Below, in pieces: positions 3,660 to 57,702 of a stretch of DNA of 64,000 nucleotides; the first letter of the stretch is position 1; every line of letters starts with the position of its first letter. The stretch covers positions 567-64,566 of the forward strand of contig CALWUZ010000212.1 in NCBI GenBank assembly GCA_944384845.1, written 5' to 3'. This stretch comes from an uncultured Clostridia bacterium. Its GTDB lineage: Bacteria; Bacillota; Clostridia; Oscillospirales; Acutalibacteraceae. Below the pieces are notes generated by a model. The model did not search any database, was not told where the DNA came from, and saw only the letters and a program-made list of their open reading frames with translations. A program made the translations under genes and the position numbers.

Positions 3660-3675
3660 AAATCTCGCCTCAGTA

Positions 3676-13836: not shown

Positions 13837-13849
13837 CTGTATTCCCTCT

Positions 13850-15868: not shown

Positions 15869-15889
15869 TAATATCACCTTTTAAAATAA

Positions 15890-32370: not shown

Positions 32371-32509
32371 ATTTGGTTCACTCCTTTGCAGATATTTAAA
32401 CATATGTACATCCAATTTACAATACAATTTCCATAATGATTTTTATAATTTTCAAAACAATTCTTGACATGCTCAGGAATTAAATATATTATAATTAAAG
32501 GTGCTATAT

Positions 32510-37428: not shown

Positions 37429-38378
37429 AAAACTACACCCTCCGATATATTATTTAATACTGCGCTTATATTATAGGTTTGTTTATAAATAAGTGCATCC
37501 AAAACCGGCTTTATCCATTTATCTGTCTTTATATCATAACATCTAAAGCCGTAGCAAAATTCCCAGTACGCCCATCCAAATCCACGTTCCTCGCAAAGCT
37601 TCACCATAAAAGCCGTCCATTCGGCACGCATATTTAAATCCGCCACGCACATAACGCCGAATTCGCCTAAATGAACATACCTTCCGTAAAAATCCGACCA
37701 CCGTTTTGCCATGTCAAAACGGTATTCAAGAAGCCTTCTCTCCTTATCACTGCCCCATACAACGCCGGTCGGCCAGTCTCCGGACATCCAGTCGGCTCCC
37801 TGATGAGTAAATTTCATCGGTGTGTATTCATGCAGCGTTACAAAAATATTTTTATCGTCCGCAGGAAGCTCAAGGTGCATAAGATTTTCAATTGTATTGC
37901 AATGTGCGCTTGCCGCGGCAATCCATCGCGTCGGATTGCTCTTTCTGATTTCTTTGATTGCTTCATTCTGAATTTCATTAAGCAAAACATAATCATACTT
38001 ATTGTCCGGCTCGTTCATCACCTCAAAAATCACTCGCTCATCCATATCCTTCATATAATCCGCCAGCTCGCTCCAGAATTTTAAGAAAGCGTTTTTATTT
38101 CCGAGAGGATTTTCGTTCATGCCGGCAAAGGGATGAATATCAACCATAACATAAAATCCGCTGTCAAGCGCCATCTGGGTAATATCGCGCATTTCCTTGT
38201 AAAAGGAGGTCTCCGGCCGGCACGCCGGATTGTCAGGATTTACCGTAAACGGCAGCCGTACATGATCAAAACCCGCTTTTTTCAAAATATCCATATACCT
38301 GCGGGCTTCTGCTTTTCTTTCGTCTGTCCACGGCTTCAAATCAATATTCATTCCGCGCTTTAATTTTGTTATATCCAT
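37425..38378 (-). CDS. GH5-family glycoside hydrolase, no signal peptide (cytoplasmic)
   Basis: FDHVRLPF, FEVMNEP, YTPMKFTHQGADW, HLGEFG. 4-nt overlap with the downstream gene. Confidence 0.8.
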   Translation of the reverse strand: MDITKLKRGMNIDLKPWTDERKAEARRYMDILKKAGFDHVRLPFTVNPDNPACRPETSFYKEMRDITQMALDSGFYVMVDIHPFAGMNENPLGNKNAFLKFWSELADYMKDMDERVIFEVMNEPDNKYDYVLLNEIQNEAIKEIRKSNPTRWIAAASAHCNTIENLMHLELPADDKNIFVTLHEYTPMKFTHQGADWMSGDWPTGVVWGSDKERRLLEYRFDMAKRWSDFYGRYVHLGEFGVMCVADLNMRAEWTAFMVKLCEERGFGWAYWEFCYGFRCYDIKTDKWIKPVLDALIYKQTYNISAVLNNISEGVVL

Positions 38379-38390
38379 TTCCTTTACCCC

Positions 38391-40828: not shown

Positions 40829-40837
40829 CTAATTTTG
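40820..40837 (-). repeat. Imperfect 9-bp tandem duplication containing the in-frame TAG
   Basis: The minus strand reads CAAAATTAG CAAAATTAT (Q-N-stop Q-N-Y). The two 9-mers differ only at the last base (G vs T). Confidence 0.9.
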
Positions 40838-43280: not shown

Positions 43281-44786
43281 CTATTTTATCGAACCGGTAT
43301 ACTTAATATCCTTTGTCCTGTCGTTTACATTTGTTTGGAAAGTGTTTTGATATGTGTCCACAAAAGTTCCCGGCGTCATTATGCCTTCAAAAAGCTGTCC
43401 GATAGCCGCGGCATACGACGTTGTATTATTGCCTAACTCAACTTTTGTAGTGCCGTCCCACACCTGTTTGACAGTTCCGTCATGCAAGGTTTTAAACATA
43501 TTGTAAGCTTCTTTATCTTTAAAAAATCTTATCCATTCATCTCTGAACTGATCGTCTCTGCTGTAACCGTCCGGCATTTTATAAAGCTCGTCAAGCAAAA
43601 GCAGAAGATCGGAAGTCATATTGGCATAAGCGGAAGGTACCACATAGCTGTATTCGTCAGTAAGCATTGAAACATATTCTTTGGCGTTCGGGCCCATCGG
43701 AATATACGCTATTCCCCACTCATCCTTCAAAGAGGTGTAGGCACGGCTGATGCCGTCGTGACCAGTAAAATACATTGCTATTTTCTTTGCCGCAAAATCC
43801 TGAGCAAGCTGTGTCCAGGTCATTTGCCCGTAATTAAAGGAAGCCACTTTATTTACATTTACCCAATCATAAATTTGCTGCAAAGCCGCGCGCGTACCCT
43901 CTGAGGAAAGCTGTACCTTATATTTTCCGTCGGAGCCGGGTATACAGATATTACTGTTGTTGCTCAGCGCAAGCGCTGCTGCCGAAGAGGTCTCAAGTCC
44001 AATACCGTATTGCGTCACCTCACCGGAAGAACTGCGGACAGTCAGCTTTTCAGCTATTTCGGTCATTTTGTCCCAGGTCCATTGCTTCTTTGAAATCAGG
44101 TCATATATATCGTAGCCCGCCCTGTCGGTCATTGTCTTATTAAAAATGATAACCGCTGGTACGCGGGCAAATCCATACCCCGCTGTATATTGCTTTCCGT
44201 TAATATTGTTAAGCTGAACATTAAATTTGTTGAATATATCAGAGGTCATATCAATTCCGGTTTTTTTCATAGCGGAATTAAAGTCCGCAATATAACCGTT
44301 GGAGGCGTAATTATAAACCGTAGCCGAACTTATCTGATAAAGCTGTCCCTCCGGTTTTACGCCCGCCAGAACTTCCTGTGCGAGGGTAGTGTTCCATTTC
44401 TTTTCAACAATTTTTACGTTAAATTCTTTTTCGACGCGGTCTACATTGTCATTCCAATTATCCCACGCGGTATACTGACCGCTGGGATATGCTCCCCATT
44501 CTCTCAGGATTGTTATCGTTTTACCGCCGAAATCAAGCTTTTGTTTCGCTTCAGAGGTGGTCTTATTGTCCGAATCCGAGCCGGCGGAAGTGTTTTGACT
44601 GCCGGCTTGCCCGTTCCCGTTTGAAGAGCTGCCGCTGCTTCCGTCGCCGCCCACTATTTCCTCTGTTTCAATCACACGCTGTATAACAGAATAATCTGAG
44701 CTGTCGTCGCCGCTGCTCTGGCAGCCCGAAAAGCATATGACAATAATACCGGAAATTATAAAGCTTATGATACGTTTGAAATTCAA
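43281..44786 (-). CDS. ABC transporter solute-binding lipoprotein (carbohydrate family)
   Basis: TTG start with AAGGAG 9 nt upstream. Lipobox VICFSGC, Gly/Ser linker. Paralog of 17155-18648. Confidence 0.8.
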   Translation of the reverse strand: MNFKRIISFIISGIIVICFSGCQSSGDDSSDYSVIQRVIETEEIVGGDGSSGSSSNGNGQAGSQNTSAGSDSDNKTTSEAKQKLDFGGKTITILREWGAYPSGQYTAWDNWNDNVDRVEKEFNVKIVEKKWNTTLAQEVLAGVKPEGQLYQISSATVYNYASNGYIADFNSAMKKTGIDMTSDIFNKFNVQLNNINGKQYTAGYGFARVPAVIIFNKTMTDRAGYDIYDLISKKQWTWDKMTEIAEKLTVRSSSGEVTQYGIGLETSSAAALALSNNSNICIPGSDGKYKVQLSSEGTRAALQQIYDWVNVNKVASFNYGQMTWTQLAQDFAAKKIAMYFTGHDGISRAYTSLKDEWGIAYIPMGPNAKEYVSMLTDEYSYVVPSAYANMTSDLLLLLDELYKMPDGYSRDDQFRDEWIRFFKDKEAYNMFKTLHDGTVKQVWDGTTKVELGNNTTSYAAAIGQLFEGIMTPGTFVDTYQNTFQTNVNDRTKDIKYTGSIK

Positions 44787-44839: not shown

Positions 44840-45778
44840 TCAGCCTACAAGACCGCTGCGCTCGACGCTTTGAACAAAAAAGCGCTGCGTAAAAAGGTAA
44901 AGCACCAGCAGAGGAACTATCAAAAAAAGTATGCCCGCGTATGCTATCAGGTTGCGGGTGACCTCATCAGCCGCTCCGCCCGAATGAAGACCGTTCAGAG
45001 AGGCCGCTAAATTTGACAGCATTTCCGTATCGCCCATAAAAATAGGAACAAAATCAGAGTCAAGCCAGGTCCATACAAAAGCAAACAAAAATACAGTAAT
45101 CATCATTGTCAGCGAGCCGGGTACCATTATCCGAATAAACGCGCCGACAGGACCGGCGCCGTCAATATAGGCCGCTTCCTCAAGTGCCGGAGGCATTGTT
45201 CGGAAATACTGACGCATTATCAGGATATAGAGCCCGCACCTGAAGCCGCTGGCGGTAACTGCCAAAAAGATTGACGGAAGCTGCGTATTGATAAAAGAAA
45301 TTCCCTGACCGTTATTTAAAAGCGGAATCAATCCGAAGAGTCTGAAATTCCGGAAAAAGGTATAAAGCGGAATTTGAAGTATAACAGGCGGAAGAACCAG
45401 TCCCACAACAGCAAGTATCAAAAGCGGTTTATTAAGAAAGAACTTGAATCTTGCCAGCCCGTAGCCTGCCATAGTACAGCTGACGGTCTGTAAAAAAGCT
45501 ACGGTAAATACAAATTGAAAAGAATAAAGATAGGAATTTCCGATGTCAAGAAGCTCTGCCGCCTTTTTAATATTATCAAGCGTAAAATGCTTGGGTATAT
45601 ATGAAACCGATAGATCATAAACATCCTCAGAGGTCATAAACATCGATGTGATTTGGGTAAAAAAAGGATATATTACAACAAAGGCAAGCAAAATAAAGAG
45701 TATTGCCCGCGCGGCGTTTATAAGTATACCGACTGTATGTTTTCTTAAAAAAGCAGAAGCGTTCAACATTTTTTTCAT
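44840..45778 (-). CDS. Carbohydrate ABC transporter permease (MalG-type)
   Basis: Polytopic, with EAA loop LEEAAYIDGAGPVGAFIRIMVP. Confidence 0.85.
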   Translation of the reverse strand: MKKMLNASAFLRKHTVGILINAARAILFILLAFVVIYPFFTQITSMFMTSEDVYDLSVSYIPKHFTLDNIKKAAELLDIGNSYLYSFQFVFTVAFLQTVSCTMAGYGLARFKFFLNKPLLILAVVGLVLPPVILQIPLYTFFRNFRLFGLIPLLNNGQGISFINTQLPSIFLAVTASGFRCGLYILIMRQYFRTMPPALEEAAYIDGAGPVGAFIRIMVPGSLTMMITVFLFAFVWTWLDSDFVPIFMGDTEMLSNLAASLNGLHSGGAADEVTRNLIAYAGILFLIVPLLVLYLFTQRFFVQSVERSGLVG

Positions 45779-45795: not shown

Positions 45796-46689
45796 CTAAT
45801 CAGAATAAGAAACATACCGGTTTATAATTAAATAAACAAATGCGACTATTAAAATAACAATCAGCAAATATGCCCAGGCCATTGCGCTGCCGATTCCGAA
45901 ATCAAGGTTTGTAAAGCATTCTTCCTTCACTCTTGAAATAAGAGAGTTTGAAACGCTGGTAAACGAATCTATGATGCAGTAAATCGCCGAAACCAGTATC
46001 ATCGGGCTTACAATCGGCAGGCTTATTTTCCAAAACACTTCCCAACCTGTAGCCCCCTCTACATATGAGGCCTCATAGACCGATTTAGGCACCGACTGAA
46101 GCCCTGCCAGCATAATAATTATCGGTATAACAGACATTGCAAGAATATTATCAATGTTATCTACGGAGGAAGTAAGCAAATTGGTTAAGCCCTCGCTGAT
46201 GTTAAGCTGTTCAAGAAAGCCGGCAAATACTCCGGAAAACACAGCTGTATTTGCAGAGCCTTTCTGCTCTATATTGTCTCTTACAGCGTCGCTGTTTAAA
46301 ATCTGCATAACAATATTTGAATTCATTATCAAAGGAAGAAACAATATTGTTCTTGCAGCGCCTCTGCCCTTGAAATCACTGTTTAAAACGCTTGCCAGAA
46401 AAAAACTGAAAATGATTACAACCGGTACATTCAGCGCCGTATCCTTCAATGTGGAGACAAGAGTTCTGTTAAACGAAGCGTCAACCGTAAAAATCCATTT
46501 ATAGTTTTCTATGCCGACAAATGATATATCGTAACCTGCCGACGTGGCCTTGACATCGCCGAAACTGTAAACCAATGACAGTATTATGGGATAAACTATC
46601 GCGACAAGAGCGCCGAGAATAAACGGCGCTGTAAACAGATAGCCGTATTTCCGGCGCCTCGCCTGAAGCGAGGCTCTTTCTTTTTTCAC
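45796..46689 (-). CDS. Carbohydrate ABC transporter permease (MalF-type)
   Basis: GTG start with an AAGGGGTGA RBS. EAA loop VYEASYVEGATGWEVFWKISLP. Confidence 0.85.
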   Translation of the reverse strand: MKKERASLQARRRKYGYLFTAPFILGALVAIVYPIILSLVYSFGDVKATSAGYDISFVGIENYKWIFTVDASFNRTLVSTLKDTALNVPVVIIFSFFLASVLNSDFKGRGAARTILFLPLIMNSNIVMQILNSDAVRDNIEQKGSANTAVFSGVFAGFLEQLNISEGLTNLLTSSVDNIDNILAMSVIPIIIMLAGLQSVPKSVYEASYVEGATGWEVFWKISLPIVSPMILVSAIYCIIDSFTSVSNSLISRVKEECFTNLDFGIGSAMAWAYLLIVILIVAFVYLIINRYVSYSD

Positions 46690-46693: not shown

Positions 46694-49198
46694 TCACCCC
46701 TTTACAACAAGATAATCTCCTGCTGCTATCGTTATTTCTTCAATAATAGCCGGATTTTCTCCGAAATTAACAAAAACCTTAGCGCCGTTTTCAAAAACAG
46801 TTTCGCTTACTTCTCTTTCAATCCATCGAAAACCGCTTATCCGCTGGTCCGCAACACACGCAAAATCGTCACAGTATTGTTTTACGCTGTCGGCAATGGT
46901 ATTCTCCCACACATTGAATCCGGTGGAATAGAAGCTGTCATAGTCGCTTTTTATAACCTTTTCCGAATTTTCGGCGGTCAGTATAAAATAAAGTCCAGCA
47001 CCTGTCTGTGCAGAATTTAAAACTGCCCTTTGAATATCTCCCGACAGATTTACCGGTTTGCCTGAATAATTCACATAGCCTTTAAGCACCATCATCAGGA
47101 AAGGAACGGAATAATCAGTACAGTCATAGCCGTTTGAATCAAGAGGCAAATTCACGGCGCTCTTTATATACGGAAGAACATAAGCGTTTGCGCCGTTAGT
47201 CATAAGATCAGCTTTTCCCGAAAGCTTTTTTACTATATCGATAATTTCATTTTTCGCCTCGCACGCATCCACCGGTGAGTTCTCATTATAATCGGCATTC
47301 AGATCCGAACCGATATTCCGCAGTGAAAGTGAGCTCAGCTGATTCGACTCCGCATATTCTAAATAAGCATTTGCTTCTTTCCTCAAAGCGCCGGAATTAT
47401 TGACAATGCGTGTCACCTGAAATTGTTTTTGTACAAAAGACGCAGGATCAAAAGTAAATACCGTACCTACCGCCTTATTTATCATTCTTATTGCTGAAGA
47501 ATTGCCTGCAGACGCCGTGTACTGTATATCGGCATCGGGATAAAACGCAATATTGCTATCTTTAAAGCTTTCGGTTAATTCGTTGAAACCCTTGCTTCCT
47601 CCAAGCTTGCCTTCAGGTCTTAGTCCGGTAATCGAGCTGTGCGACAATCCTCCGCCAAACCATCCGCTCAGCCGTACATTTATATTGCTTATGCCTTTCT
47701 CCGTAATACATTTTGAAAGGTTATAAACCTGTTCAAAATCAGTCATTGCTATTGATTCGGTATACTGAACACCGAGCTTTTGTCCCTGCTTGCCTATCAT
47801 GCCGATAAATTCTATATTAAGCGGAACGGCTTCAGTTTTTTCTTTATCCTCAAAAATACGCTGCCGATAGAGCTCTGCCATCGCGTTATAATCCGAGTTT
47901 CCTTCCTGAAGAAAAGAATACCTTACAGAAAGGTCTCCGGAATAACGCCGCTTCTGCACCACAGTAGAAGCTTCTTTCCTTCCCGACGCAAGAACAGAGG
48001 TATATGTTTCTCTGAAATTAAAGTTAACGCCCGCATAAGGAACATCGGAGAAATCGCCCGGATAAGCTATTACCTCTGCAATACTGTCGCCTCCGGTTAT
48101 TTCCGCGAACATCGCCGCCCCGGAACGGTGCACCCCGTATACCGGAAGAGAGGCGTTCATAAAATTTGAGGTTTTCTCTCCGTTTGCAAGAGAATATCCG
48201 GTTCCGTATACCCGCACCTGATATTGATGACCGTTGCTCTTATTGTTATAAAAGTTCATTACCGAACCGCTTCCGTCCGGAAGAAGAAAATAACCGCTTT
48301 CTTCAGAAGCCGGCGACCCGAAATATTTCATAAGTGTCAGGTCAATGAGCGGAAAATCGGAATACATTTCAATTTTATCGTTCGGGATACTGACGATAAG
48401 GTCACTGCCGTCGAGAATGTATTCGACCGTAATATTAAATCCGGGTTCCGTAACCGTCGAATCATCGCCGTTAAAGCTTGATTTGTCTTGCTCATACATT
48501 TCCGGAGTATATCCGGCTAAGGTTAGTATTTCAGAAAATTCACTTCTGACATTATAGGATGTAAGCACCGAGTCATTTATTACATACATCGCCTTTTCTT
48601 TCAAAATCGGATACCGTTTGGTATAACCGCTTTCATCATCAGACGAATTTTCCTTTTTAGGATCATAAAAATAATAATAGTTCTGAAATTTCATCAAATC
48701 AAATTCATCGTCAAGATTCGAGCAAAGCTCTTCATAGCGTTCAGCCGAAATCACTTCAGGAATCAATATTTGCTCCGTAAAATTTCCTATGCTGTAATGA
48801 ACACTTAAAATGCTGTCTTCGCTTTCAACTCTGTACTGACCGTTCGCAACAGAATTTTGGAATGAATCGTATTTGCCTATCGTACCTGTAGACTCAAGAT
48901 AAGACAGTTCTATAACCGCTCTTGATGATTCATTTTTGCTCTCGCCGTTTGAAGAATTCCAAACGGAGCCGTCCTTTTTATTGACAACACGTATTTCTGT
49001 CGTGTCGGGATTCATATATAAATACAAATCATCATTTTCAAGATAAAGTTCGTAATCTTCCGATCCTATATCATTCCCGGCAGTGTTCTGACCGCATATG
49101 CTTGCCTGATTGATATTTTCTGATATTTCAGCGCCGCAGCCTGATAAAAAAACCGCCGCGCAAACAACAGAAGCCGTAATACAAACAGCCTTTTTCAT
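46694..49198 (-). CDS. Exported ~834-aa lipoprotein of unknown function (DUF5696-like); cassette copy B
   Basis: ATG at 49198 with a GGAGGG RBS gives MKKAVCITASVVCAAVFLSGC (lipobox). The longer track ORF would overlap the upstream gene. Paralog of 3676-6210. Confidence 0.6.
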   Translation of the reverse strand: MKKAVCITASVVCAAVFLSGCGAEISENINQASICGQNTAGNDIGSEDYELYLENDDLYLYMNPDTTEIRVVNKKDGSVWNSSNGESKNESSRAVIELSYLESTGTIGKYDSFQNSVANGQYRVESEDSILSVHYSIGNFTEQILIPEVISAERYEELCSNLDDEFDLMKFQNYYYFYDPKKENSSDDESGYTKRYPILKEKAMYVINDSVLTSYNVRSEFSEILTLAGYTPEMYEQDKSSFNGDDSTVTEPGFNITVEYILDGSDLIVSIPNDKIEMYSDFPLIDLTLMKYFGSPASEESGYFLLPDGSGSVMNFYNNKSNGHQYQVRVYGTGYSLANGEKTSNFMNASLPVYGVHRSGAAMFAEITGGDSIAEVIAYPGDFSDVPYAGVNFNFRETYTSVLASGRKEASTVVQKRRYSGDLSVRYSFLQEGNSDYNAMAELYRQRIFEDKEKTEAVPLNIEFIGMIGKQGQKLGVQYTESIAMTDFEQVYNLSKCITEKGISNINVRLSGWFGGGLSHSSITGLRPEGKLGGSKGFNELTESFKDSNIAFYPDADIQYTASAGNSSAIRMINKAVGTVFTFDPASFVQKQFQVTRIVNNSGALRKEANAYLEYAESNQLSSLSLRNIGSDLNADYNENSPVDACEAKNEIIDIVKKLSGKADLMTNGANAYVLPYIKSAVNLPLDSNGYDCTDYSVPFLMMVLKGYVNYSGKPVNLSGDIQRAVLNSAQTGAGLYFILTAENSEKVIKSDYDSFYSTGFNVWENTIADSVKQYCDDFACVADQRISGFRWIEREVSETVFENGAKVFVNFGENPAIIEEITIAAGDYLVVKG

Positions 49199-49209
49199 TT
49201 TTGCCCTCC

Positions 49210-51273
49210 TTATACGCGCAAGGTCACTTCGTTTACAAGGTCTTTTATAAAGGCAACAAGCTGTTGACACAGCGCAAATGCCAGCATACCGATAAAAACT
49301 ATCAAAAGAATGACGACCGCAATTACAATAATAACCAAAAAGGTTTTGCTAAGGGTATAATTATGCGTCTGCATAAGTCCTAAAATTATCAGCGCCGCGC
49401 TCCATATAAGCGCAAAAGCCGCCAGAATAAAATAAAAATCCCCTTCATCTATAAGCAGAACATTGCTTAAAAGCACGGCTATTATGTTTATGACAACATA
49501 CGGCCGTAAAGCATAGCAGGTAGCCACAAATATATCCGCAAATTTACCCTCACCGTTCATCAGAGAAGTAACAGACCACTGTGCGATGCACCATATCATT
49601 ACAGCCGCCGCCACAAAGACAATATTGCCGAGCATATTATAACTGTCAATATCGGTATAGTTGAATATAAATCCGGTGAAGAGACTTTTTGATACAAACA
49701 CTGCCGCGGCTGCCGCAAACCAAAAAGCAGCCATTTTCACCGAACCGCGCTTTTCACGCTTTAAATCCCAGAATCCGTCCAAAGGATGAAAGCATACATA
49801 AGATGAAAAATTGATTTTGCGCAGCAGAGAATTTTTGTCTGCCGCAGCAAGTCTTTTACGGTAAAGTCTTAAAAGCACCGCTGTGCCGGCACACAAAATC
49901 ACAGCGCCCGACAAAATAACAACCACATTGCTCTCAATCCATTCGCGCCTGACATATGAATACGCATTTGAATATTCCTCACGCGCCCCTGCCCGTTTAT
50001 AATAATTCATAGCAAGGCTCATATCCCGGTTTTTGTAAGCCGCGTCGCCCAGTCCGCACATTGCAAGAGTACAGTTCACGTTGCGCTCAATAACTTCATT
50101 CCAAAGCTCTGACTCCCGCTCAAAATCTATATCGGCTTTAGCCTCGGCTATTTCACTGAAAAGTCTGCCGTAATCACTGAGCGTAAAAACGCACACGGCA
50201 TTCTTACCGGTATCGCATATGTAAAACCTTCCGTCACTGTATGCCATCGCAGCGGCAACAGACATGCTTCCGCCGTATGTTCCGGGTCCCGAAAATGCGT
50301 AAAGCATCTCACTTTCATTATTGTAAACAAATACACGTGAGCGCTTCCGATCCAGTATGGCATAATTTCCGCCTTCCATTTCGCACAGATCCACTATTGC
50401 GGATGCACCGGTATATGTAATTCCGCCGCTTGTATTATCGCCGAAAAATTCGTTTTCATCATTAAGCACATCTGTTCCGTTGGCATTTAGCTTCCGCACC
50501 GCCTTTATATCCTTAGAGGTAGACTCGTTCGTGACATAAATAAAGCCTTCCCCGTCAATACAGAGATTTGAATATTCGGTAGGAACAACCGACTGAGTGC
50601 GCTCCTGCTGTTCCTTTGTTGAGAATTTGCGCCATATCTGCTCTGCAATAGAAAGATTTACCTTAGGCGCACCCACAGATTTTAAATATACGTTATTTTC
50701 GTCGAACTGCATCAGTCCCATATTATAGCCATCGGAAATCACAAAAATTCGTCCGTATGAATCTGCCGCAAGCTTTACAGGCTTGAAAGTAAAATCTTCG
50801 GGCAGCGACTCATCCTCCGGCGCAGTTATTTCCAGCAGAAATTCTCCTTCAAGAGATAGCTTTACAATCCTTGAGTTGCCTGTATCCGCAATGTACAGTG
50901 CGTCATTTGCGACACATATACCTGACGGTTCCAAAAAGGTTTCAAGCTTTCCCGCGCGCTCAAATGAATCTATTGCTTCGGCGGACCTGAACTCAGGATC
51001 TGTCACTACAATACGATTGTTTTTTGTATCGGCTATATAAATTCTGTCTCCGCTGATAAAAATATCGCTCGGCGAAGAAAAATTACCGATTGCAAATTCA
51101 CTTCCGTAAAAAGTTCCGGAAGGAAGCGCACCCTCAGGAGACGGCGCCGTTTCACCCTCGGCATTGTAACTGTAGCTGTAAAAAACAGCCGCATCAGCCG
51201 AAATGCCGAATAAAGACAACAGCAGAAGCATCAAAGCTGCCGAACGTCTGATCTTTTTTAGAAAACCAAGCAT
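49210..51273 (-). CDS. Signal peptide + NHL-repeat propeller + TM + C-terminal Yip1-type domain; cassette copy B
   Basis: NHL repeats (FSSPSDIFISGDRIYIADTKNNRIVVTD; FLEPSGICVANDALYIADTGNSRIVKLS). TM VVVILSGAVILCAGTAVLL. Then HPLDGFWDLKREKRG and five hydrophobic spans. The C-terminus ...QQLVAFIKDLVNEVTLRV parallels copy A. Confidence 0.75.
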   Translation of the reverse strand: MLGFLKKIRRSAALMLLLLSLFGISADAAVFYSYSYNAEGETAPSPEGALPSGTFYGSEFAIGNFSSPSDIFISGDRIYIADTKNNRIVVTDPEFRSAEAIDSFERAGKLETFLEPSGICVANDALYIADTGNSRIVKLSLEGEFLLEITAPEDESLPEDFTFKPVKLAADSYGRIFVISDGYNMGLMQFDENNVYLKSVGAPKVNLSIAEQIWRKFSTKEQQERTQSVVPTEYSNLCIDGEGFIYVTNESTSKDIKAVRKLNANGTDVLNDENEFFGDNTSGGITYTGASAIVDLCEMEGGNYAILDRKRSRVFVYNNESEMLYAFSGPGTYGGSMSVAAAMAYSDGRFYICDTGKNAVCVFTLSDYGRLFSEIAEAKADIDFERESELWNEVIERNVNCTLAMCGLGDAAYKNRDMSLAMNYYKRAGAREEYSNAYSYVRREWIESNVVVILSGAVILCAGTAVLLRLYRKRLAAADKNSLLRKINFSSYVCFHPLDGFWDLKREKRGSVKMAAFWFAAAAAVFVSKSLFTGFIFNYTDIDSYNMLGNIVFVAAAVMIWCIAQWSVTSLMNGEGKFADIFVATCYALRPYVVINIIAVLLSNVLLIDEGDFYFILAAFALIWSAALIILGLMQTHNYTLSKTFLVIIVIAVVILLIVFIGMLAFALCQQLVAFIKDLVNEVTLRV

Positions 51274-51289
51274 TGCCCTTCCCCCGACA

Positions 51290-52159
51290 TTATTCTTTGA
51301 TGCCAGACGACATCATAGTTTCCATTACATTACTTTGTGTTATGATAAATATTATAATTGGCACAATCATCATAAGCATTGATATAGCCGCGCTTTCACC
51401 GGTTCTTGAAATACCTGCCGATACCGCCTGCGACATCGCGTAAGGAAGAGTTTTTAGCTGTTCGCTGTAAATCGTTCCGCTTGCCGTTGTACCCCAGAGG
51501 CTTTGAAAAGAAAAAATTATAAGCGTAAGCCATGCGGATTTTACCGAAGGCATTACAATAGTCCAGAAAATTCGCTGCTCCCCCGCACCGTCAACGCGCG
51601 CCGCTTCAAGTATTGTATCGGGCACGTTGACCATAAACTGCTTCATAAGAAAAACATTAAAAGACGAGCCGAATGTAGGCAAAAAAATTGACCAATATGT
51701 GTCAATAACTCCTATTCTTGACATAATCAGATAATTAGGAATGGCCGTAACCGCCGTTGTAAACATCATAGCTGTAACAACCATATTAAACATAAAGTTT
51801 TTTCCCTTGAACTTTTTCTTTTCAAGCACGTAACCCGCCGCCGAGGCGACAAATATCGAGCCGGCAGTGCCCACAACAGTTATAAGAATTGTATTTGACA
51901 CATAACGGGTAAAAGGAACCATCGTCTCGCTGAACAAAGCTGAAATTCCCTTAAAATTATTTAAAGTAGGGTTACGTACAAAAAAGCGAGGCGGGAATAC
52001 GAAAAGCTCGTCAAGCGGTTTAAACGCGTTGCTTATCACATAAACCATCGGCAATATCATAACCGAAGCAAGCAAACATAAAAACACAAAATTTGCTGTC
52101 CGGCCAGCAAAGGATCTCCCCGCGCGCGGTTTAATTACCCGCAGTTTTATATGCTTCAT
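51290..52159 (-). CDS. Carbohydrate ABC transporter permease (MalG/LplC-type); cassette copy B
   Basis: EAA loop ILEAARVDGAGEQRIFWTIVMP. The C-terminal QSNVMETMMSSGIKE matches the copy A tail QSNVMQTMSSSGIKD. Confidence 0.85.
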   Translation of the reverse strand: MKHIKLRVIKPRAGRSFAGRTANFVFLCLLASVMILPMVYVISNAFKPLDELFVFPPRFFVRNPTLNNFKGISALFSETMVPFTRYVSNTILITVVGTAGSIFVASAAGYVLEKKKFKGKNFMFNMVVTAMMFTTAVTAIPNYLIMSRIGVIDTYWSIFLPTFGSSFNVFLMKQFMVNVPDTILEAARVDGAGEQRIFWTIVMPSVKSAWLTLIIFSFQSLWGTTASGTIYSEQLKTLPYAMSQAVSAGISRTGESAAISMLMMIVPIIIFIITQSNVMETMMSSGIKE

Positions 52160-52180
52160 CTGCTCTGCACCCTAATCTTT

Positions 52181-53092
52181 CTATTTTCCTACTCCCGAAA
52201 TTACGGACTGAACCAGCTTATTCGTACCGACCATAACTATAAAAAGAATTGTCGCAATCGCGCTGGCGTAGCCCATTTCAAATTTAGTGCTGCCGTAGTC
52301 GTTAAGATGGTTTATTATTGTGTGCGCGGCATAATCCGTGCTCGGAAAACCGCACAGCGCGGTTGTTACATCTCCGACGCCGAACGACGAGGTAATGCTC
52401 ATTACCGCTCCGAACATCAGCTGCGGCTTCATCGACGGAAGCGTAACATACCAAAGCTCCTGCCATCGGTTGCGTATCCCCTCAATATATCCGACCTCAT
52501 AATATGTGCGGTCAATATTTCTCAGCCCGGCAACAAATGAAAGAAATCCCGCTCCGAGACTCATCCAGATAACAACCGCAATAACAAGCGGCAGCATATA
52601 CTTTGGATCGGTAAACCACTGTATCGGCTGATCTATAATATTGAGATACATCAGCAGTGAATTGGCATAACCGTGAGCATCACCGCTGAACATTATCTGC
52701 CATATCATATAAACTCCGCCCGAAATTGACGGAGCGTAAAAAAACAGCACCATTACCGGTCTTATTTTCGGGTTAAGATCATTAATGAACCAGGCTATAA
52801 AAAGCGAGGCAAAATATCCGACAGGTCCTGTGATGACCGCGATAATAAACGTATTTTTTACAGCCATCAAAAATTCATCGTCACCGAACAGCAAATCAAG
52901 ATAATTCTGAAAAAAAACAATTTTGGGCATTTGGAAAACATTATAATCCGTAAAAGAAAGAATCATTGAAATAAGGACCGGAAGAATTGTAAATACGAAA
53001 AAAAGTATGATAAACGGCGCAAGATAGCACACAGAAAAAATACGGTCTTTAGTGCGCCATCCGGCATTAGAATATTTTTTGAATAATTTCAT
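52181..53092 (-). CDS. Carbohydrate ABC transporter permease (MalF/LplB-type); cassette copy B
   Basis: ATG at 53092 with a GGAG RBS. EAA loop YYEVGYIEGIRNRWQELWYVTLPSM. Paralog of 9230-10123. Confidence 0.85.
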   Translation of the reverse strand: MKLFKKYSNAGWRTKDRIFSVCYLAPFIILFFVFTILPVLISMILSFTDYNVFQMPKIVFFQNYLDLLFGDDEFLMAVKNTFIIAVITGPVGYFASLFIAWFINDLNPKIRPVMVLFFYAPSISGGVYMIWQIMFSGDAHGYANSLLMYLNIIDQPIQWFTDPKYMLPLVIAVVIWMSLGAGFLSFVAGLRNIDRTYYEVGYIEGIRNRWQELWYVTLPSMKPQLMFGAVMSITSSFGVGDVTTALCGFPSTDYAAHTIINHLNDYGSTKFEMGYASAIATILFIVMVGTNKLVQSVISGVGK

Positions 53093-53199
53093 AAATAATC
53101 TCCATTCTGCCGCTGAAAAAAGCAGCATAAACAGGTACGGAAAAACATATAAAGCGCAATTTATAATAAAAATTTATATTATTGCTAATCCGGAGCTTT

Positions 53200-55992
53200 T
53201 TATTCTCTTGTTTCAAGCCCGAATTCCAGGCGCTTTTTGGTAAGCTCGCTGTTGATTTCATATGTATATTCATACATAGCGTCAGTCGGGGACATTCCGT
53301 GGTAGACTACGTTTCTGAAAGCGTTATCCAAATTTCTTGAAAGATAATATCCTCCCGGTACCGGCTCTACTGCCGAGAGCTGGCGCTTCTGCTCAATAAT
53401 CACGTCTTTCTGGTCAGAGGTCCAGTTACTGTTTTCAAAAGCTTCCTTATTTGCGGAATTATAGCGCGAGGACTTGCCGAGAATACTTTCTATTTCATCC
53501 GCAAAAGAAATCTGGGCTTCAGCTCCCGTCCACCATTTCAAAAATTCCCATGCCTCAGCAGGATATTTCGTATCTGCAAGTATCATTGCGGCGCCTACTG
53601 CTGCAAGTGACGTTCTGTCAACCGTACCGTCTTCCCTTTCCATACCGGGTACGGGCGCCATACTCCAAAGCCCGTTAATTTCCGGAGCCGCAACCTGTAT
53701 GTTATTAAACATACCATAGTTAGCTATTCCTATAGGCATTTCACCGCTCCGGAAACGGTTAAGAAAATCAAACGAAATCGGAAAACCGTAGTTTACAAAT
53801 AGATTTGTAAATTTTGTAAATACGGAAATAGCCTTAACGGTGTCGAGAAGGCTGTATTTGCCTCCCTCGGCATATATTTCACCGCCCGACTGTTTTAACA
53901 TCATCAGATATGTATTGGAATCCGAAGGAACGCCTATCTGCATATTATTGTTTGCGAGCACTGTGGAAATTTCTATAAGCTCATCCCACGTTTGCGGCAC
54001 TTTTATTCCTAATTCTTCAAAAATATCGGTGCGGTAAAACATCATATTAAAGCTTACCGTTTCAGGTAATCCGTACAAATTCCCGAGATACCGCATAGTA
54101 ATAAGCGAAGCTTCGTCAAATCTTGCAGCAACCTCCTCCGCATCGTCAAATTCGGAAAGAGGATATGCCGCTCCGCGCATTGCAAAATTAAATACATCCG
54201 GGCTTGATTGTACAACAAGATCCGGTCCTATTCCCGCAACAGTTGCCGGAAGCAAGGAGTTAGTGACATTTTTAACAGAAACTGATATACCGCTTTGCGG
54301 CGTGAAGGACTTCGCCGCAAGGTCTCTGACAATCTGAGCCTGCTCCCTGCCGGCGCTTACCCATACCGTAAGAGTTTTTTTCTCACCGGCTGTCTTCGAC
54401 CCGATAAGCTCATAATCCGTAACATAAGACGCAAGGTACTCCTTTACGGAAAACAGAAGCTGCTTGAAAAAACCCGTTCCCGCCTTTGGAAGCTTCTCTT
54501 TGTCATTCCCGAAAGTAAAGCTGTCAATTTCAAGGGGCTGCTCTCCCGCGTCTGAAATCCAGGTGCTTAAGGAGCCTATATTCGTTTTAAAATAAGAAAA
54601 CTCTTTCGGTATTTCGTCCGGATTAGAATACATATTGTTAAGCTGTCTTATAAAACTGCGTATAAGAGCCGCTCCGGAATTACCCCTTCCGCAGTATTCC
54701 TCAATATAATCTGCGCAGACCTCAAGCCGCTCGGCATAGGTTTTCAATGCTGCTATCTGCTCCGGATGCAACACATCAAGCCTGTAATCACGAAACAAGT
54801 CCGGCGATGAGCCGAGTACGGTCAAAAACTCCCGATAAATGAGATTAAAGCCGTCAATACAATCCAAAAGCACTCGCAGCACTCTGTCCATTTTTCCGTA
54901 AGTATTCTGAAGCTTGATCTGATTCCTGCCCTCTGTAAAATAGAAGAGGAAATCAGTCTCACCGCCTAAGGTTGCCGCCTGCCATGAGCTGTCATAGCCG
55001 AATGAAAGCTCTGCCGCTTCTTTAAAAGGTATGTTGTTGTTAATATACAGCACTCTTGCCGACGACTGTCCGGGAGCCGTGTTCTGACGAAAACGCAGGC
55101 TTATCCTGTAAAGCCCCGATTTCTTTATATCCACCTCCCAGACAAAATACTGACCTGCACTGCTCCAGCGGCTGCCTCCGACAGTATTAAGCCTTATTTT
55201 GCCCGCCTTGGAGGGACTTGTCGCTGCAGAGGTACGATCCGCAACGGGGAAAAGAGTTGTCGAGGATTTCAATTCATAATCTTCCGCTTCGAGAACCAAG
55301 GTTTCAGCACCTTCTGAAATCCCTTCGCTTTTATAAAGCTCAAGCTGTTCGGAATAACTCCGCACATTCCCCGCCGGCTGTAAAATTATACTTTCAACTT
55401 CAGCCGTTCCGCCCAGCGCTGTCAGCGTCAGTGTATTTACTCCTTTATTCAAATTCACCGAAAGCGGTTCGCTGTAGCTGTAAGTATAATCATATGCATA
55501 ATTTGTTGCGGGCTTTGTGCTTACCGCATGCTCCGGACGTATTTCATTGCCGTATATATCAAGTTCCGGCTTACTCAGGTCATAATACTCACATTCAAGA
55601 ACAAACGAAGACAGCTCAATATACTGTGTTTCACCGTTTACAAGCAGTCCGAACTCGGCCTGCTCACGATTGCCTGAGGTGTTCACATAAGTGAACTTAA
55701 GATAATATCTGCCGTCCTGAGGCGATAAAACCTCCCAGTCGGTGCGAGGCAAGCCGTCGCTTCCCTTGTATTGAGAAAGATTTACCGCGTTCAATTCCGG
55801 ACCTTCGGCAGGCGGATATGCTTTATGGTCCAGAAAATAAGCGTAACTGTCCGGAGAGGCACTGACCCGCTCTATTTCATAAAGTTCTTCAGATATATTC
55901 TGAGCAGTATATGAATCGGCAGCGGCGGTCTGCATAATTACCGCCGACGCAATAATACAAAAACTCATAAAAAAAGATATGAACTTACACAT
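53200..55992 (-). CDS. Giant (930 aa) secreted solute-binding protein with two N-terminal beta-sandwich (CBM-like) domains; cassette copy B
   Basis: GGGAGG RBS and signal peptide ...IMQTAAAD. It is colinear with 10123-12930 (e.g. LEAEDYELKSS...RWSSAGQYFVWEVDIKKSGLYRISLRF; the C-terminal SBP body ends ...ELTKKRLEFGLETRE vs ...ELTKKRREFGLETDS). Confidence 0.75.
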   Translation of the reverse strand: MCKFISFFMSFCIIASAVIMQTAAADSYTAQNISEELYEIERVSASPDSYAYFLDHKAYPPAEGPELNAVNLSQYKGSDGLPRTDWEVLSPQDGRYYLKFTYVNTSGNREQAEFGLLVNGETQYIELSSFVLECEYYDLSKPELDIYGNEIRPEHAVSTKPATNYAYDYTYSYSEPLSVNLNKGVNTLTLTALGGTAEVESIILQPAGNVRSYSEQLELYKSEGISEGAETLVLEAEDYELKSSTTLFPVADRTSAATSPSKAGKIRLNTVGGSRWSSAGQYFVWEVDIKKSGLYRISLRFRQNTAPGQSSARVLYINNNIPFKEAAELSFGYDSSWQAATLGGETDFLFYFTEGRNQIKLQNTYGKMDRVLRVLLDCIDGFNLIYREFLTVLGSSPDLFRDYRLDVLHPEQIAALKTYAERLEVCADYIEEYCGRGNSGAALIRSFIRQLNNMYSNPDEIPKEFSYFKTNIGSLSTWISDAGEQPLEIDSFTFGNDKEKLPKAGTGFFKQLLFSVKEYLASYVTDYELIGSKTAGEKKTLTVWVSAGREQAQIVRDLAAKSFTPQSGISVSVKNVTNSLLPATVAGIGPDLVVQSSPDVFNFAMRGAAYPLSEFDDAEEVAARFDEASLITMRYLGNLYGLPETVSFNMMFYRTDIFEELGIKVPQTWDELIEISTVLANNNMQIGVPSDSNTYLMMLKQSGGEIYAEGGKYSLLDTVKAISVFTKFTNLFVNYGFPISFDFLNRFRSGEMPIGIANYGMFNNIQVAAPEINGLWSMAPVPGMEREDGTVDRTSLAAVGAAMILADTKYPAEAWEFLKWWTGAEAQISFADEIESILGKSSRYNSANKEAFENSNWTSDQKDVIIEQKRQLSAVEPVPGGYYLSRNLDNAFRNVVYHGMSPTDAMYEYTYEINSELTKKRLEFGLETRE

Positions 55993-56349: not shown

Positions 56350-57702
56350 TTGAAAACTCTTTTTAATTTTGACAATGTTCCCGATATATATCTTAAAATA
56401 TACAGTGCCCAAATAATCACTTTGACAGACAGAACTGTTTTTACGCCTCGCAAGCATCATCATTTTATAATTTTACTTTCCGGAAATTTATCATTCGAGA
56501 TTTTATATAATGAAGCGTTTTCCTCTAAGCATACCTGCCACAACAGCTATTTGATTTCACTTGAAAATACTTACGATTATTGCTTATCCGCAATTTCTCA
56601 GCAATGCCGGCTTATTTATCTTGAGCTTGACTTTTTTGCGGCTTCGTACGGTAAAGACCCCGACAAATCAAATCTTCCGGAATTTGAATGCAGGTTTGTA
56701 CCGTTTACGGCAATGCTCGGTCAAAACCCTCTTTCATATTACACAGACCGTTTTCCTACCATTGTATCGGATATTCTTCTTATTGAATCCCTGATTGAAC
56801 AGAACGCCTGTACATCAGATATACTGCGCAAAGCACTTGAAAAGATTTTCCTGATGTTTTTAAGCGTTCATCATTCTATAATTAAAAATACGATGAGCTC
56901 CCTTTCCGCTGTCGCCCTGACCAATATATTTAAAATTACTTCCCACCCTTTCAGTCTTTCTTTGAGCGATATTTCCATTTGGTCTGACAATCCCAAGGTA
57001 AATCACGGCGCAGTTCTGCTGATGAAAAACTCTTCGCTGCATAAATATATTGAGCTGCCGCAAAAATCAGATTGCTACAAATACAGCTATATTGATAAAG
57101 ACAGTAAAATGCCGGGCGGATACTGCAATTTTATTCTTTTAGACAAAGAAAATTTCAAGCTGTGGTGTTTCCCGCAGACAAACACCATTTCACTTGAAGA
57201 ATATAAGGAAAAAGCAACCATTACAATGCGCATCAAATGCAGCCAACCCTGCCAGCTGTATCTGCTGATATACTCAATACCCAGTTATCTGAGCTTTTCA
57301 TACACACTGGATATTTCTAAAACGGACACATGGTGCGATATTTCAATACCGGTCATCAGCAACAGCCATTCCAAAACGCTTCCTGCCTTCACAACTAACG
57401 CAATAAATTATATACAAAAGCATTTTGCAGAAAAAATAACCGTAAAAGATATAGCAGAGCATCTTCATATACATCCTTCATATCTCTCCTATATATTTAA
57501 AAAAAGTACAGGGCAGTCAGTTAACAAATATATCAATTTTTACCGCATAACCCTTGCAAAGCAACTGCTTGACAACACTAACGACAGCATTACTTCCATT
57601 GCACTGAAAACCGGTTTTTACGACAGCCAGCATTTTTTAAAAACATTTAAGAAGATTTCAGACATGACACCAAGCGAATACAGAAATCAACGGTCCGACT
57701 GA
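56350..57702 (+). CDS. AraC-family regulator with an enlarged (~340 aa) N-terminal region
   Basis: TTG start with GGAGG ~10 nt upstream. C-terminal AraC HTH (INYIQKHFAEKITVKDIAEHLHIHPSYLSYIFKK...ALKTGFYDSQHFLKTFKKISDMTPSEY). A cupin-like start (HHHFIILLSGNLSFEI) is followed by ~230 aa that I cannot assign. Confidence 0.8.
   Translation: MKTLFNFDNVPDIYLKIYSAQIITLTDRTVFTPRKHHHFIILLSGNLSFEILYNEAFSSKHTCHNSYLISLENTYDYCLSAISQQCRLIYLELDFFAASYGKDPDKSNLPEFECRFVPFTAMLGQNPLSYYTDRFPTIVSDILLIESLIEQNACTSDILRKALEKIFLMFLSVHHSIIKNTMSSLSAVALTNIFKITSHPFSLSLSDISIWSDNPKVNHGAVLLMKNSSLHKYIELPQKSDCYKYSYIDKDSKMPGGYCNFILLDKENFKLWCFPQTNTISLEEYKEKATITMRIKCSQPCQLYLLIYSIPSYLSFSYTLDISKTDTWCDISIPVISNSHSKTLPAFTTNAINYIQKHFAEKITVKDIAEHLHIHPSYLSYIFKKSTGQSVNKYINFYRITLAKQLLDNTNDSITSIALKTGFYDSQHFLKTFKKISDMTPSEYRNQRSD

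What the first reader, a model, noticed from the sequence alone, without database searches (positions are those of the whole stretch)
46694..55992. Second, diverged copy of the same five-gene cassette with identical gene order, embedded in a different enzyme context
The order SBP(930)-permease-permease-NHL/Yip1(687)-DUF5696-like(834) is the same as at 3.7-12.9 kb. By-eye alignment of the MalG-type permeases gives roughly half identical residues over an aligned ~75-aa stretch. Even the idiosyncratic tails are kept (QSNVM.TM.SSGIK(D/E); ...E(I/V)TLR(L/V)). Copy A sits with GH16 enzymes and copy B with GH5 enzymes. This suggests the cassette is a generic accessory or uptake machine re-used for different glycans. 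The anchor types differ: TM anchor vs cleavable signal on the SBP, and TM anchor vs lipobox on the DUF5696-like protein.
Basis: seen in the sequence. Interest (0 to 1): 0.7.

Follow-up and report, generated by a model that had tools for sequence, protein, structure and literature searches.

The report
Duplicated glycan-uptake gene module
The window holds two old, diverged copies of a widespread but unstudied gene module: two sugar ABC importers, a giant binding protein, a propeller-Yip1 membrane protein and a glycosidase-like DUF5696 protein, which gut and other bacteria place next to different glycan-cutting enzymes.

Summary
All five protein pairs are homologous over nearly their full length: giant SBP 38% identity, the two permeases 54% and 57%, NHL-Yip1 31%, DUF5696 27%. 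A second permease pair and a ~500-aa lipoprotein SBP are also paralogous between the two loci, so the real unit has 7-8 genes. Copy B has the canonical order, found complete in 24 of 27 testable genome loci and also in Caldicellulosiruptor and Treponema. Copy A carries a rearrangement that its orthologues share.

A and B fall in separate orthologous clades (DUF5696 bootstrap 100 and 89 of 100), and all seven testable families agree. Each clade keeps its own enzyme partners: A with GH16 and GH20, B with GH5. Other lineages sit beside GH13, GH98, GH32, GH18 or an N-glycanase.

DUF5696 is a remote GH129/GH101-like barrel, but no acidic residue is conserved at 95% or more across 137 members. The giant SBP consists of two weakly CBM35-like sandwiches, a helical bundle and a MalE-like domain.

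No paper in the searched library mentions DUF5696 or this pairing. Uptake is well supported. The roles of the two accessory proteins are inferred.

The parts
53200..55992 (-). Copy B giant solute-binding protein (930 aa). Layout: N-terminal helix, two beta-sandwiches (about 60-206 and 232-364), helical bundle (366-482), MalE-like SBP domain (487-930).
   Evidence: Pfam SBP_bac_1/8 at 560-853. AF2 model with pLDDT 89. Foldseek and phmmer best matches are oligosaccharide SBPs such as 5ysb and 5ci5. Weak CBM35 and Golvesin_C hits fall on the sandwiches.
52181..53128 (-). Copy B permease 1 (MalF-type). 315 aa as the mechanical ORF; called as 303 aa in identical metagenome contigs.
   Evidence: BPD_transp_1. 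54% identical to copy A. Variant EAA loop YEVGYIEG. Gene call in L001.
51290..52159 (-). Copy B permease 2 (MalG-type, 289 aa).
   Evidence: BPD_transp_1. EAA motif EAARVDGAG at residue 185. 57% identical to copy A.
49210..51273 (-). Copy B NHL-propeller/Yip1 membrane protein (687 aa). Layout: signal peptide, NHL repeats, TM at about 450-468, K/R-rich linker, Yip1 multi-TM domain, conserved C-terminal tail.
   Evidence: Pfam NHL 1.6e-20 and Yip1 2e-15. Hydropathy and sequence. 1,399 cluster representatives at E<=1e-30; the 150 best listed are almost all full-length matches.
46694..49198 (-). Copy B DUF5696 lipoprotein (834 aa), a GH129/GH101-like fold.
   Evidence: Pfam DUF5696 2.9e-153. Lipobox LSGC. 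AF2 pLDDT 89. Foldseek matches 5opq at E 3e-29 and 5wzr at E 4e-22. Profile against PDB finds ZgGH129 at E 5e-9.
45796..46689 (-). Copy B second-transporter permease pP (297 aa).
   Evidence: BPD_transp_1. 33% identical to 13850-14764. Follows DUF5696 in 34 of 38 testable loci.
44840..45778 (-). Copy B second-transporter permease pQ (312 aa).
   Evidence: BPD_transp_1. 35% identical to 12940-13836. Present in 33 of 35 testable loci.
43281..44786 (-). Copy B ~500-aa lipoprotein, presumed SBP of the second transporter.
   Evidence: Lipobox FSGC. 24.5% identical to 17155-18648, which hits SBP_bac_1. It has no Pfam or PDB hit of its own.
56350..57702 (+). AraC-family regulator, divergent from operon B.
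   Evidence: HTH_AraC and HTH_18. A homologue sits in the same position in L009, L010 and L051.
33913..39611 (-). Three GH5 genes downstream of copy B: 38391-39611, 37425-38378 and 33913-37428.
   Evidence: Pfam Cellulase at about 1e-38 to 1e-40. The closest solved structures are Thermotoga maritima Cel5A-type endoglucanases.
39608..43270 (-). Large gene of unknown function between the small SBP and the GH5 genes. In the window it is interrupted by an in-frame TAG.
   Evidence: It is an intact 1217-aa gene in L001-L003. A 9-bp tandem duplication at 40830-40838 creates the stop codon at 40829-40831.
10123..12930 (-). Copy A giant SBP (935 aa, hydrophobic N-terminal anchor).
   Evidence: Pfam. 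37.6% identical to B.
9230..10123 (-). Copy A permease 1 (297 aa).
8355..9212 (-). Copy A permease 2 (285 aa).
6228..8339 (-). Copy A NHL-propeller/Yip1 protein (703 aa).
3676..6210 (-). Copy A DUF5696 (844 aa, no lipobox). It carries the clade-specific LPSGxG in place of the family's LPDGSG.
   Evidence: Pfam 2.2e-129. Motif comparison.
12940..14764 (-). Copy A second permease pair: pP 13850-14764 and pQ 12940-13836. Here it lies upstream of the giant SBP, not downstream of DUF5696.
   Evidence: A-clade orthologues L046 and L048 share this placement.
17155..18648 (-). Copy A ~500-aa lipoprotein SBP.
   Evidence: SBP_bac_1 4e-14. Lipobox FSGC.
14825..17128 (-). Two GH16 genes between the small SBP and the second permease pair of copy A. 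A third GH16 with a dockerin lies at 21263-23848.
   Evidence: Pfam Glyco_hydro_16. The closest solved structures are laminarinases.
1815..3743 (-). GH20 hexosaminidase-like gene directly downstream of copy A.
   Evidence: Glyco_hydro_20 plus Glyco_H_20C_C 6e-62. GH20 follows the module in L046 and L048 as well.

Best explanation
The two cassettes are ancient paralogues of one conserved 7-8-gene glycan-uptake module. They are not products of a recent duplication.

The module encodes two CUT1-type ABC importer membrane units (perm1/perm2 and pP/pQ). Each appears to have its own binding protein. One is a giant surface SBP whose N-terminal half carries two weakly CBM35-like beta-sandwiches and a helical bundle. 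The other is a ~500-aa lipoprotein SBP. Two further surface or membrane proteins always travel with them: an NHL beta-propeller fused to a Yip1 multi-pass domain, and DUF5696, a GH129/GH101-like barrel protein tethered by a lipid or TM anchor. No ATPase is encoded in the module, so a shared MsmX/MsmK-type ATPase from elsewhere in the genome is presumed.

The likely mechanism is as follows, and every step of it is inferred.
1. Locus-specific secreted endo-enzymes (GH16 beside copy A, GH5 beside copy B) cut the polymer.
2. The giant SBP captures the oligosaccharides and passes them to perm1/perm2.
3. DUF5696 trims or holds the oligosaccharides at the surface, and the second transporter takes up a second product class.
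4. The Yip1 domain of the NHL-Yip1 protein contacts the transporter membrane domains and holds the assembly together. This parallels the Yip1 protein YknW, which modulates assembly of the ABC transporter YknXYZ.

The membrane parts evolve slowly and the extracellular parts fast. That pattern lets the same chassis be retuned to different glycans.

What is shown: homology, gene order, clade structure, the varied enzyme partners, and the folds. What is inferred: substrates, physical association, and whether DUF5696 is catalytically active.
For: - Full-length homology of all pairs, plus three additional paralogous pairs.
- The order SBPL-perm1-perm2-NHLYip-DUF5696-pP-pQ is complete in 24 of 27 genome loci with enough flank. 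Individual genes are present in 87-95% of testable loci.
- The same module occurs in Caldicellulosiruptor owensensis and Treponema phagedenis.
- In all seven testable families, A's nearest relatives are L048 and/or L046 (L048 carries no pP), and B's are L005, L009 and L006-8. The small SBP is the exception: only B shows a close relative there.
- DUF5696 clade bootstrap is 100 (A) and 89 (B) of 100.
- A-to-B distances run permeases 0.39-0.45, pP/pQ 0.65-0.67, giant SBP 0.69, NHL-Yip1 0.73, DUF5696 0.80, small SBP 0.84.
- Clade-specific partners: L046 and L048 carry GH16, GH20, GH2 and GH3; L052 carries four GH5 genes.
- Neighbours elsewhere are diverse.
- EAA loops are present in the permeases.
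- Folds.
- NHL-Yip1 is split into two genes in nine loci, which links the two halves functionally.
- YknW precedent: PMC4887032.
- Intergenic gaps in copy B are tight, 4-71 nt.
Against: - There is no expression, binding or activity data.
- No ATPase is encoded in the window.
- Physical association of the accessory proteins with the transporters is untested.
- No acidic residue reaches 95% conservation in 137 DUF5696 proteins. The best candidate, D636, is Asn in 11 and Ser in 4, which weakens the enzyme reading.
- The CBM35 hits on the giant SBP are mostly below Pfam thresholds.
- The small SBP was recognised in only 17 of 32 testable loci.
- DUF5696 also occurs without the module in L038, L039 and L045.
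Confidence: 0.6

Rival explanations
1. DUF5696 is not an enzyme. It is a glycosidase-shaped binding or ancillary subunit of the transporter, comparable to the inactive GH13-like ectodomains 4F2hc and rBAT that partner SLC7 transporters. The rest of the module works as in the best explanation.
For: Every position conserved at 95% or more in 137 members is G, P, Y, A, F, N or L. No Asp or Glu reaches that level. D636 is Asp in 87%, with scattered Asn or Ser even among close relatives. The near-invariant D308 is Ser across almost the whole A clade. The protein keeps company with very different enzyme families, which suits a generic role better than one fixed glycosidase activity.
Against: D636 sits in a hydrophobic-Asp-aromatic context at roughly the position expected for the GH129 nucleophile, and most members retain it. 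DUF5696 is among the fastest-diverging components, as expected if its specificity tracks the substrate. Alignment error at 22-27% identity can blur catalytic columns. The 4F2hc comparison is from memory; its PDB hit was not significant (E 0.47).
Confidence: 0.3
2. The two cassettes arose by a recent segmental duplication within this genome and have simply drifted apart.
For: Same gene order and same strand, about 34-43 kb apart.
Against: B is closer to modules in other species (L009 distance 0.42, L006-8 0.53-0.55, L018 0.63 for the giant SBP) than it is to A (0.69). A has its own orthologues at 39-61% identity in other metagenomes, and they share its rearranged order.
Confidence: 0.03
3. The module is mainly a sensor. 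The giant SBP and the NHL propeller detect extracellular glycan and signal to the adjacent AraC regulator, and transport is secondary.
For: An AraC gene lies divergently upstream of copy B and of its orthologues. The NHL propeller resembles the extracellular domain of the kinase PknD (1rwi).
Against: There is no kinase, receiver or other signalling domain in the module. It holds four canonical importer permeases with EAA loops. AraC neighbours are common in ordinary sugar operons (established knowledge).
Confidence: 0.07

Closest known systems
CUT1-family (MalEFG-type) ABC sugar importers of Gram-positive polysaccharide utilisation loci
   Same: SBP_bac_1/8 binding domain, paired BPD_transp_1 permeases with EAA loops, a neighbouring AraC regulator and neighbouring GH genes, and no ATPase in cis.
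   Different: Two transporters are always paired. One SBP is about 930 aa with a ~490-aa extension of sandwiches and helices, and rarely has a lipobox (12 of 117 by a crude test). Two extra conserved genes, NHL-Yip1 and DUF5696, sit between the two permease pairs.
GH129 (NagBb, ZgGH129) and GH101 glycoside hydrolases
   Same: The overall fold of the DUF5696 model. Foldseek gives E 3e-29 (TM 0.67 on target) for 5opq and 4e-22 (TM 0.71) for 5wzr, with GH101, GH31 and GH36 next. There is weak but significant profile similarity, E 5e-9 and 6e-6. The GH129 and GH101 catalytic domains are themselves alike (PMC8106489).
   Different: Identity is only 10-14%. Pfam files the protein only under DUF5696. 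No strictly conserved catalytic carboxylates were found. It is membrane-tethered and embedded in a transporter operon.
YknW of the Bacillus YknWXYZ ABC transporter
   Same: A bacterial Yip1-family membrane protein encoded with an ABC transporter. YknW modulates assembly of the YknXYZ complex (PMC4887032).
   Different: YknWXYZ is a MacB-type exporter, and YknW has no NHL propeller. Here the Yip1 domain is fused to, or encoded next to, an extracellular propeller and accompanies importers.
Bacteroidota Sus-like utilisomes (SusCD with a surface glycan-binding protein and a surface GH)
   Same: The functional logic: a conserved uptake chassis with surface binding and glycosidase-like lipoproteins, copied many times per genome and paired with different enzymes. 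One MAG here has 5 copies. The comparison itself rests on established knowledge.
   Different: There are no homologous components. These systems use ABC importers in a cytoplasmic membrane rather than a TonB-dependent outer-membrane transporter.

Membership tests
CUT1-type ABC carbohydrate importer | Extracellular family-1 solute-binding domain | tested here: met
   SBP_bac_1 9e-23 and SBP_bac_8 6e-22 in B; 6e-17 and 3e-20 in A. Structural matches to oligosaccharide SBPs.
CUT1-type ABC carbohydrate importer | Two BPD_transp_1 permeases with an EAA coupling loop | tested here: met
   Pfam. The EAAxxDGA motif is present in perm2, pP and pQ of both copies. perm1 has the variant YEAGAIDG / YEVGYIEG.
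CUT1-type ABC carbohydrate importer | Cognate ATPase (MalK/MsmX type) | tested here: not met
   None in the window. The only ABC_tran domain belongs to an exporter-type protein at 60658-62409. A shared ATPase encoded elsewhere is usual for Firmicutes CUT1 systems (established knowledge), so this does not exclude membership.
Pfam DUF5696 (PF18952) | Full-length match above the gathering score | tested here: met
   512 bits (B) and 433 bits (A) against a cutoff of 25.6, covering profile positions 2-612 and 8-612.
GH129 | Sequence membership in the family | tested here: not met
   Pfam reports no family other than DUF5696 at E<=0.01. phmmer of the single protein finds nothing in the PDB. Only a profile reaches ZgGH129 (5e-9) and NagBb (6e-6), through short segments.
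GH129 | Fold of N-terminal sandwich, (beta/alpha)8 barrel and C-terminal sandwich | tested here: met
   AF2 pLDDT 89. Foldseek probability 1.00; TM on target 0.67-0.72.
GH129 | Conserved catalytic nucleophile and acid/base carboxylates | tested here: inconclusive
   The candidate D636 is Asp in 87% of 137 sequences, and no acid reaches 95%. A residue-level structural superposition was not available. A fragment-profile search for the catalytic region found no GH129 hit.
Yip1 family (PF04893) | Multi-pass Yip1 domain above the gathering score | tested here: met
   57.5 bits (B) and 47.1 bits (A) against a cutoff of 28.6. Hydrophobic segments lie at about 514-664.
NHL-repeat beta-propeller | NHL repeats | tested here: met
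   Pfam NHL 1.6e-20 (B) and 2.5e-12 (A). PDB matches to TRIM71, PknD and Pizza propellers. The number of blades was not determined.
Gram-positive PUL (at least one glycan-degrading enzyme, a carbohydrate transporter and a regulator in one locus; definition recalled from the literature) | Co-located GH, transporter and regulator | tested here: met
   B: AraC 56350-57702, the module, and three GH5 genes. A: AraC 26047-26880, three GH16 genes, the module, and GH20.

The most novel reading that the evidence does not exclude
DUF5696 and NHL-Yip1 are dedicated ancillary subunits that assemble two ABC importers and a giant SBP with CBM-like domains into one surface complex, a Gram-positive counterpart of the Bacteroidota utilisome. 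Under this reading DUF5696 is either a new glycoside hydrolase family related to GH129/GH101 or a catalytically relaxed pseudo-glycosidase. In the pseudo-glycosidase case it would serve the transporter much as 4F2hc serves SLC7 carriers.
Probability: 0.25. Interest if true: 0.85.

Novelty: new variant of a known kind. Interest (0 to 1): 0.6.

Why it matters
ABC-importer glycan loci of gut Firmicutes are usually described as an SBP, two permeases and enzymes. This module adds two conserved proteins of unknown role, a second transporter and an unusually large binding protein.

It is very common. NHL-Yip1 alone has 1,399 cluster representatives (50% identity clusters) at E<=1e-30. It occurs several times per genome and reaches from Oscillospirales to Caldicellulosiruptor and Treponema; close homologues of its giant SBP are also found in Paenibacillus. 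No paper in the searched library names DUF5696 or the pairing.

If the parts form one machine, that would change how glycan capture at the Gram-positive surface is modelled. It would also give DUF5696 and bacterial NHL-Yip1 proteins a function. The two copies in one genome, each with a different enzyme set, offer a natural specificity-swap experiment.

Tried and rejected
- **Literature.** Ten full-text searches, including DUF5696, PF18952, Yip1 with ABC/SBP/NHL terms, Caldicellulosiruptor with Yip1 or NHL, and the NCBI product names, found nothing on this module. Only background on GH129/GH101 and YknW turned up.
- **Catalytic residues by sequence.** I tried to map GH129 catalytic residues onto DUF5696. 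The whole-family profile aligned only three short segments. A fragment profile of residues 596-745 hit no GH129 chain. Foldseek output carries no residue alignment, so the question stays open.
- **First genome scan.** The 61-sequence alignment had no searchable conserved stretch and the scan failed. A closer alignment worked, but its pattern LPDGSGS[VL]M cannot match A-clade genes, which have LPSGSGA. A-type loci therefore had to be reached through exact-protein look-ups.
- **Promoter and terminator scans.** Promoter-like sites were near shuffle expectation in both scans, as were terminator-like sites in copy A. Terminator-like sites in copy B were somewhat enriched (24 found against 14.2, sd 3.6), but they lie inside coding sequence. 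None of this was used.
- **Giant SBP fold search.** The C-terminal SBP domain dominated the results, which said nothing about the N-terminal half.
- **Pfam scan of the giant-SBP alignment.** It exceeded the size limit and was replaced by seven N-terminal fragments.
- **Bootstrap run.** The first run had an invalid distance cap and was redone.
- **Paenibacillus look-up.** The look-up for a Paenibacillus giant SBP found no record.
- **Small SBP of copy B.** It has no Pfam, NCBIfam or PDB sequence hit.
- **Rejected explanations.** Recent in-genome duplication and similarity limited to the permease fold (see the rival explanations).
Full report
**Observation.**
The minus strand carries two runs of genes with the same order.
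- Copy B (46694-55992): a 930-aa SBP, two permeases, a 687-aa NHL/Yip1 protein and an 834-aa DUF5696 protein.
- Copy A (3676-12930): the equivalents at 935, 297, 285, 703 and 844 aa.

BLASTP between the copies gives these values:
- SBP: 37.6% identity over 836 residues.
- Permeases: 54.2% and 56.7%.
- NHL/Yip1: 31.4% over 700 residues (E 3e-100).
- DUF5696: 26.8% over 821 residues (E 2e-69).

Unrelated CUT1 permeases in the same window are only 22-29% identical, so the likeness is not just a shared fold. The quoted C-terminal tails and the anchor differences are in the sequence.

**The unit is larger than five genes.**
The same BLAST shows three more paralogous pairs:
- Permease 13850-14764 with 45796-46689 (33%).
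- Permease 12940-13836 with 44840-45778 (35%).
- The ~500-aa lipoproteins 17155-18648 with 43281-44786 (24.5%).

A scan of one genome per species found 41 loci that encode a DUF5696 relative. Among them the order is giant SBP, perm1, perm2, NHL-Yip1, DUF5696, pP, pQ, often followed by the small SBP. The seven-gene order is complete in 24 of the 27 loci with enough flanking sequence. Single genes are present in 87-95% of testable loci, and the small SBP is recognisable in 17 of 32.

Copy B has this canonical order. In copy A, pP and pQ lie upstream of the giant SBP, and two GH16 genes separate them from the small SBP. Three loci (L038, L039, L045) have DUF5696 without the module.

**Distribution.**
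- Contigs identical to the window come from metagenome assemblies.
- The nearest named relatives are Acutalibacteraceae and Ruminococcaceae MAGs. Lachnospiraceae, Holtiella, Defluviitaleaceae and Epulonipiscium-like genomes also carry the module.
- One MAG has five copies and another has two.
- The full eight-gene module is present in Caldicellulosiruptor owensensis OL. A seven-gene version in Treponema phagedenis is followed by a PNGase-F-like N-glycanase.
- Giant-SBP homologues at 35-38% identity occur in Paenibacillus, Cohnella, Butyrivibrio and Acholeplasmataceae.
- A search of 1.84 billion cluster representatives with the NHL-Yip1 protein found 1,399 at E<=1e-30. The 150 best listed are almost all full-length matches of about 700 aa.

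**Orthology test.**
- A search with copy A's DUF5696 found a separate set of proteins at 39-61% identity. Copy B has its own set at 44-56%.
- In a neighbour-joining tree of 52 DUF5696 proteins, the A clade has bootstrap 100/100 and the B clade 89/100.
- In all seven testable families, A's nearest relatives come from loci L048 and/or L046 (L048 has no pP), and B's from L005, L009 and L006-8. For the small SBP only copy B shows a close relative. The module is therefore inherited as a block.
- B is closer to modules of other species than to A, which rules out a recent internal duplication.
- A-clade loci share copy A's rearranged order and its partners. L046 has GH16 upstream and GH2, GH20 and GH3 downstream. 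L048 has GH20 and sialic-acid genes.
- B-clade locus L052 has a large gene of unknown function and four GH5 genes downstream, like the window.
- Seventy co-directional neighbours of other lineages include GH13, GH98, GH32, GH5, GH18 and pectate-lyase-like proteins.
- A-to-B distance rises from the perm1/perm2 permeases (0.39-0.45) through pP/pQ (0.65-0.67), the giant SBP (0.69) and NHL-Yip1 (0.73) to DUF5696 (0.80) and the small SBP (0.84).

**The parts.**
*Giant SBP.* The model is confident (pLDDT 89). It shows an N-terminal helix, two beta-sandwiches, a bundle of long helices and a MalE-like domain. The last domain matches oligosaccharide SBPs such as the sophoro-oligosaccharide binder 5ysb. 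The sandwiches give weak CBM35 and Golvesin_C hits, mostly below threshold.

*Permeases.* They carry EAA loops. The window encodes no importer ATPase.

*NHL-Yip1.* It has a signal peptide, NHL repeats, one TM segment, a K/R-rich linker that is probably cytoplasmic, and the Yip1 multi-pass domain. Its C-terminal motif, roughly F..D...E(I/L/V)..R, is kept across the family. In nine loci the propeller part and the Yip1 part are separate adjacent genes.

*DUF5696.* The model is confident (pLDDT 89). Its best structural matches are GH129 enzymes, then GH101, GH31 and GH36. A family profile also reaches GH129 by sequence.

*DUF5696 catalytic residues.* In 137 family members no acidic residue is conserved at 95% or more. 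The best candidate nucleophile, D636, is Asp in 87% and Asn or Ser in 15 sequences. The otherwise near-invariant D308 of the LPDGSG motif is Ser in nearly the whole A clade.

**Mechanism.**
Uptake of oligosaccharides by two ABC importers is well supported by domain content and context. Three points are inferred from gene order, divergence rates and neighbours:
- The giant SBP serves perm1/perm2 and the small SBP serves pP/pQ.
- Locus-specific endo-enzymes supply the oligosaccharides.
- The extracellular parts set the specificity.

The role of NHL-Yip1 as an assembly or scaffold subunit rests on its invariable position and on one precedent. YknW is a Yip1-family protein that modulates assembly of the ABC transporter YknXYZ (PMC4887032). 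Whether DUF5696 is an active glycosidase or a glycosidase-shaped binding subunit cannot be decided here. I put enzyme ahead of non-enzyme, but not by much.

**Substrates.**
The GH16 enzymes of copy A resemble laminarinases. GH20, GH2, GH3 and sialic-acid genes in A-clade loci leave host-type glycans open as well. The GH5 enzymes of copy B resemble Thermotoga maritima Cel5A-type endoglucanases.

**Comparison with known systems and novelty.**
The transporters are ordinary CUT1-type importers in a Gram-positive PUL-like setting. Four features are not described in any paper found here:
- The constant pairing of two importers.
- The giant SBP with its N-terminal extension.
- NHL-Yip1.
- DUF5696.

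No DUF5696 member has a solved structure in the PDB copy searched. I class the finding as a new variant of a known kind. It is of moderate to high interest because the module is so common and so consistently organised. The two copies in this window give a built-in comparison of specificity.

Noticed in passing
window 40829-40838 (minus strand), within 39608-43270: A 9-bp tandem duplication (GCAAAATTA twice) creates an in-frame TAG. It splits a gene that is an intact 1217-aa ORF in near-identical metagenome contigs L001-L003. This may be strain-level pseudogenisation or a sequencing variant.
   Followed up: yes
window 18651-21242, 21263-23848, 24018-25715: Three adjacent secreted proteins share a ~230-aa N-terminal domain that occurs twice per protein (25-39% identity). 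The first protein has no Pfam hit. Two of them carry dockerins, so the organism probably builds cellulosome-like assemblies.
   Followed up: partly
window 26047-26880, 32501-33271, 56350-57702 (all on the + strand): Three AraC-family regulators each sit divergently upstream of a minus-strand glycan operon. The middle operon (27347-32427) encodes a GH20-like protein, a SIS-domain protein, a Gfo/Idh/MocA oxidoreductase and two proteins with no Pfam hit.
   Followed up: partly
window 33913-37428 and 40829-43270: The 1171-aa GH5 protein and the interrupted large protein share several ~24% identical segments of unknown domain type. A large Pfam-less protein upstream of GH5 genes is also present in locus L052; sequence similarity to the window protein was seen only for the large downstream proteins of L009, L006/L007 and L016.
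   Followed up: partly
L027, L029, L031-L035, L041, L043: NHL-Yip1 is encoded as two adjacent genes: a propeller part of about 490-550 aa and a Yip1 part of about 205-254 aa. In the window and most other loci it is one gene.
   Followed up: partly
L053 (Treponema phagedenis) 731-13171: The module occurs in a spirochaete, followed directly by a PNGase-F-like N-glycanase. This suggests horizontal spread and use on host N-glycans.
   Followed up: no
giant SBP family (P0136-P0255): By a crude N-terminus test only 12 of 117 giant SBPs have a lipobox, whereas 7 of 9 small SBPs do. How a mostly lipid-anchor-free SBP stays at a Gram-positive surface is unexplained.
   Followed up: partly
window 3676-3743: The mechanical GH20 ORF (GTG start at 3743) overlaps the end of copy A's DUF5696 gene by 68 nt. 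The true GH20 start is probably further downstream.
   Followed up: no
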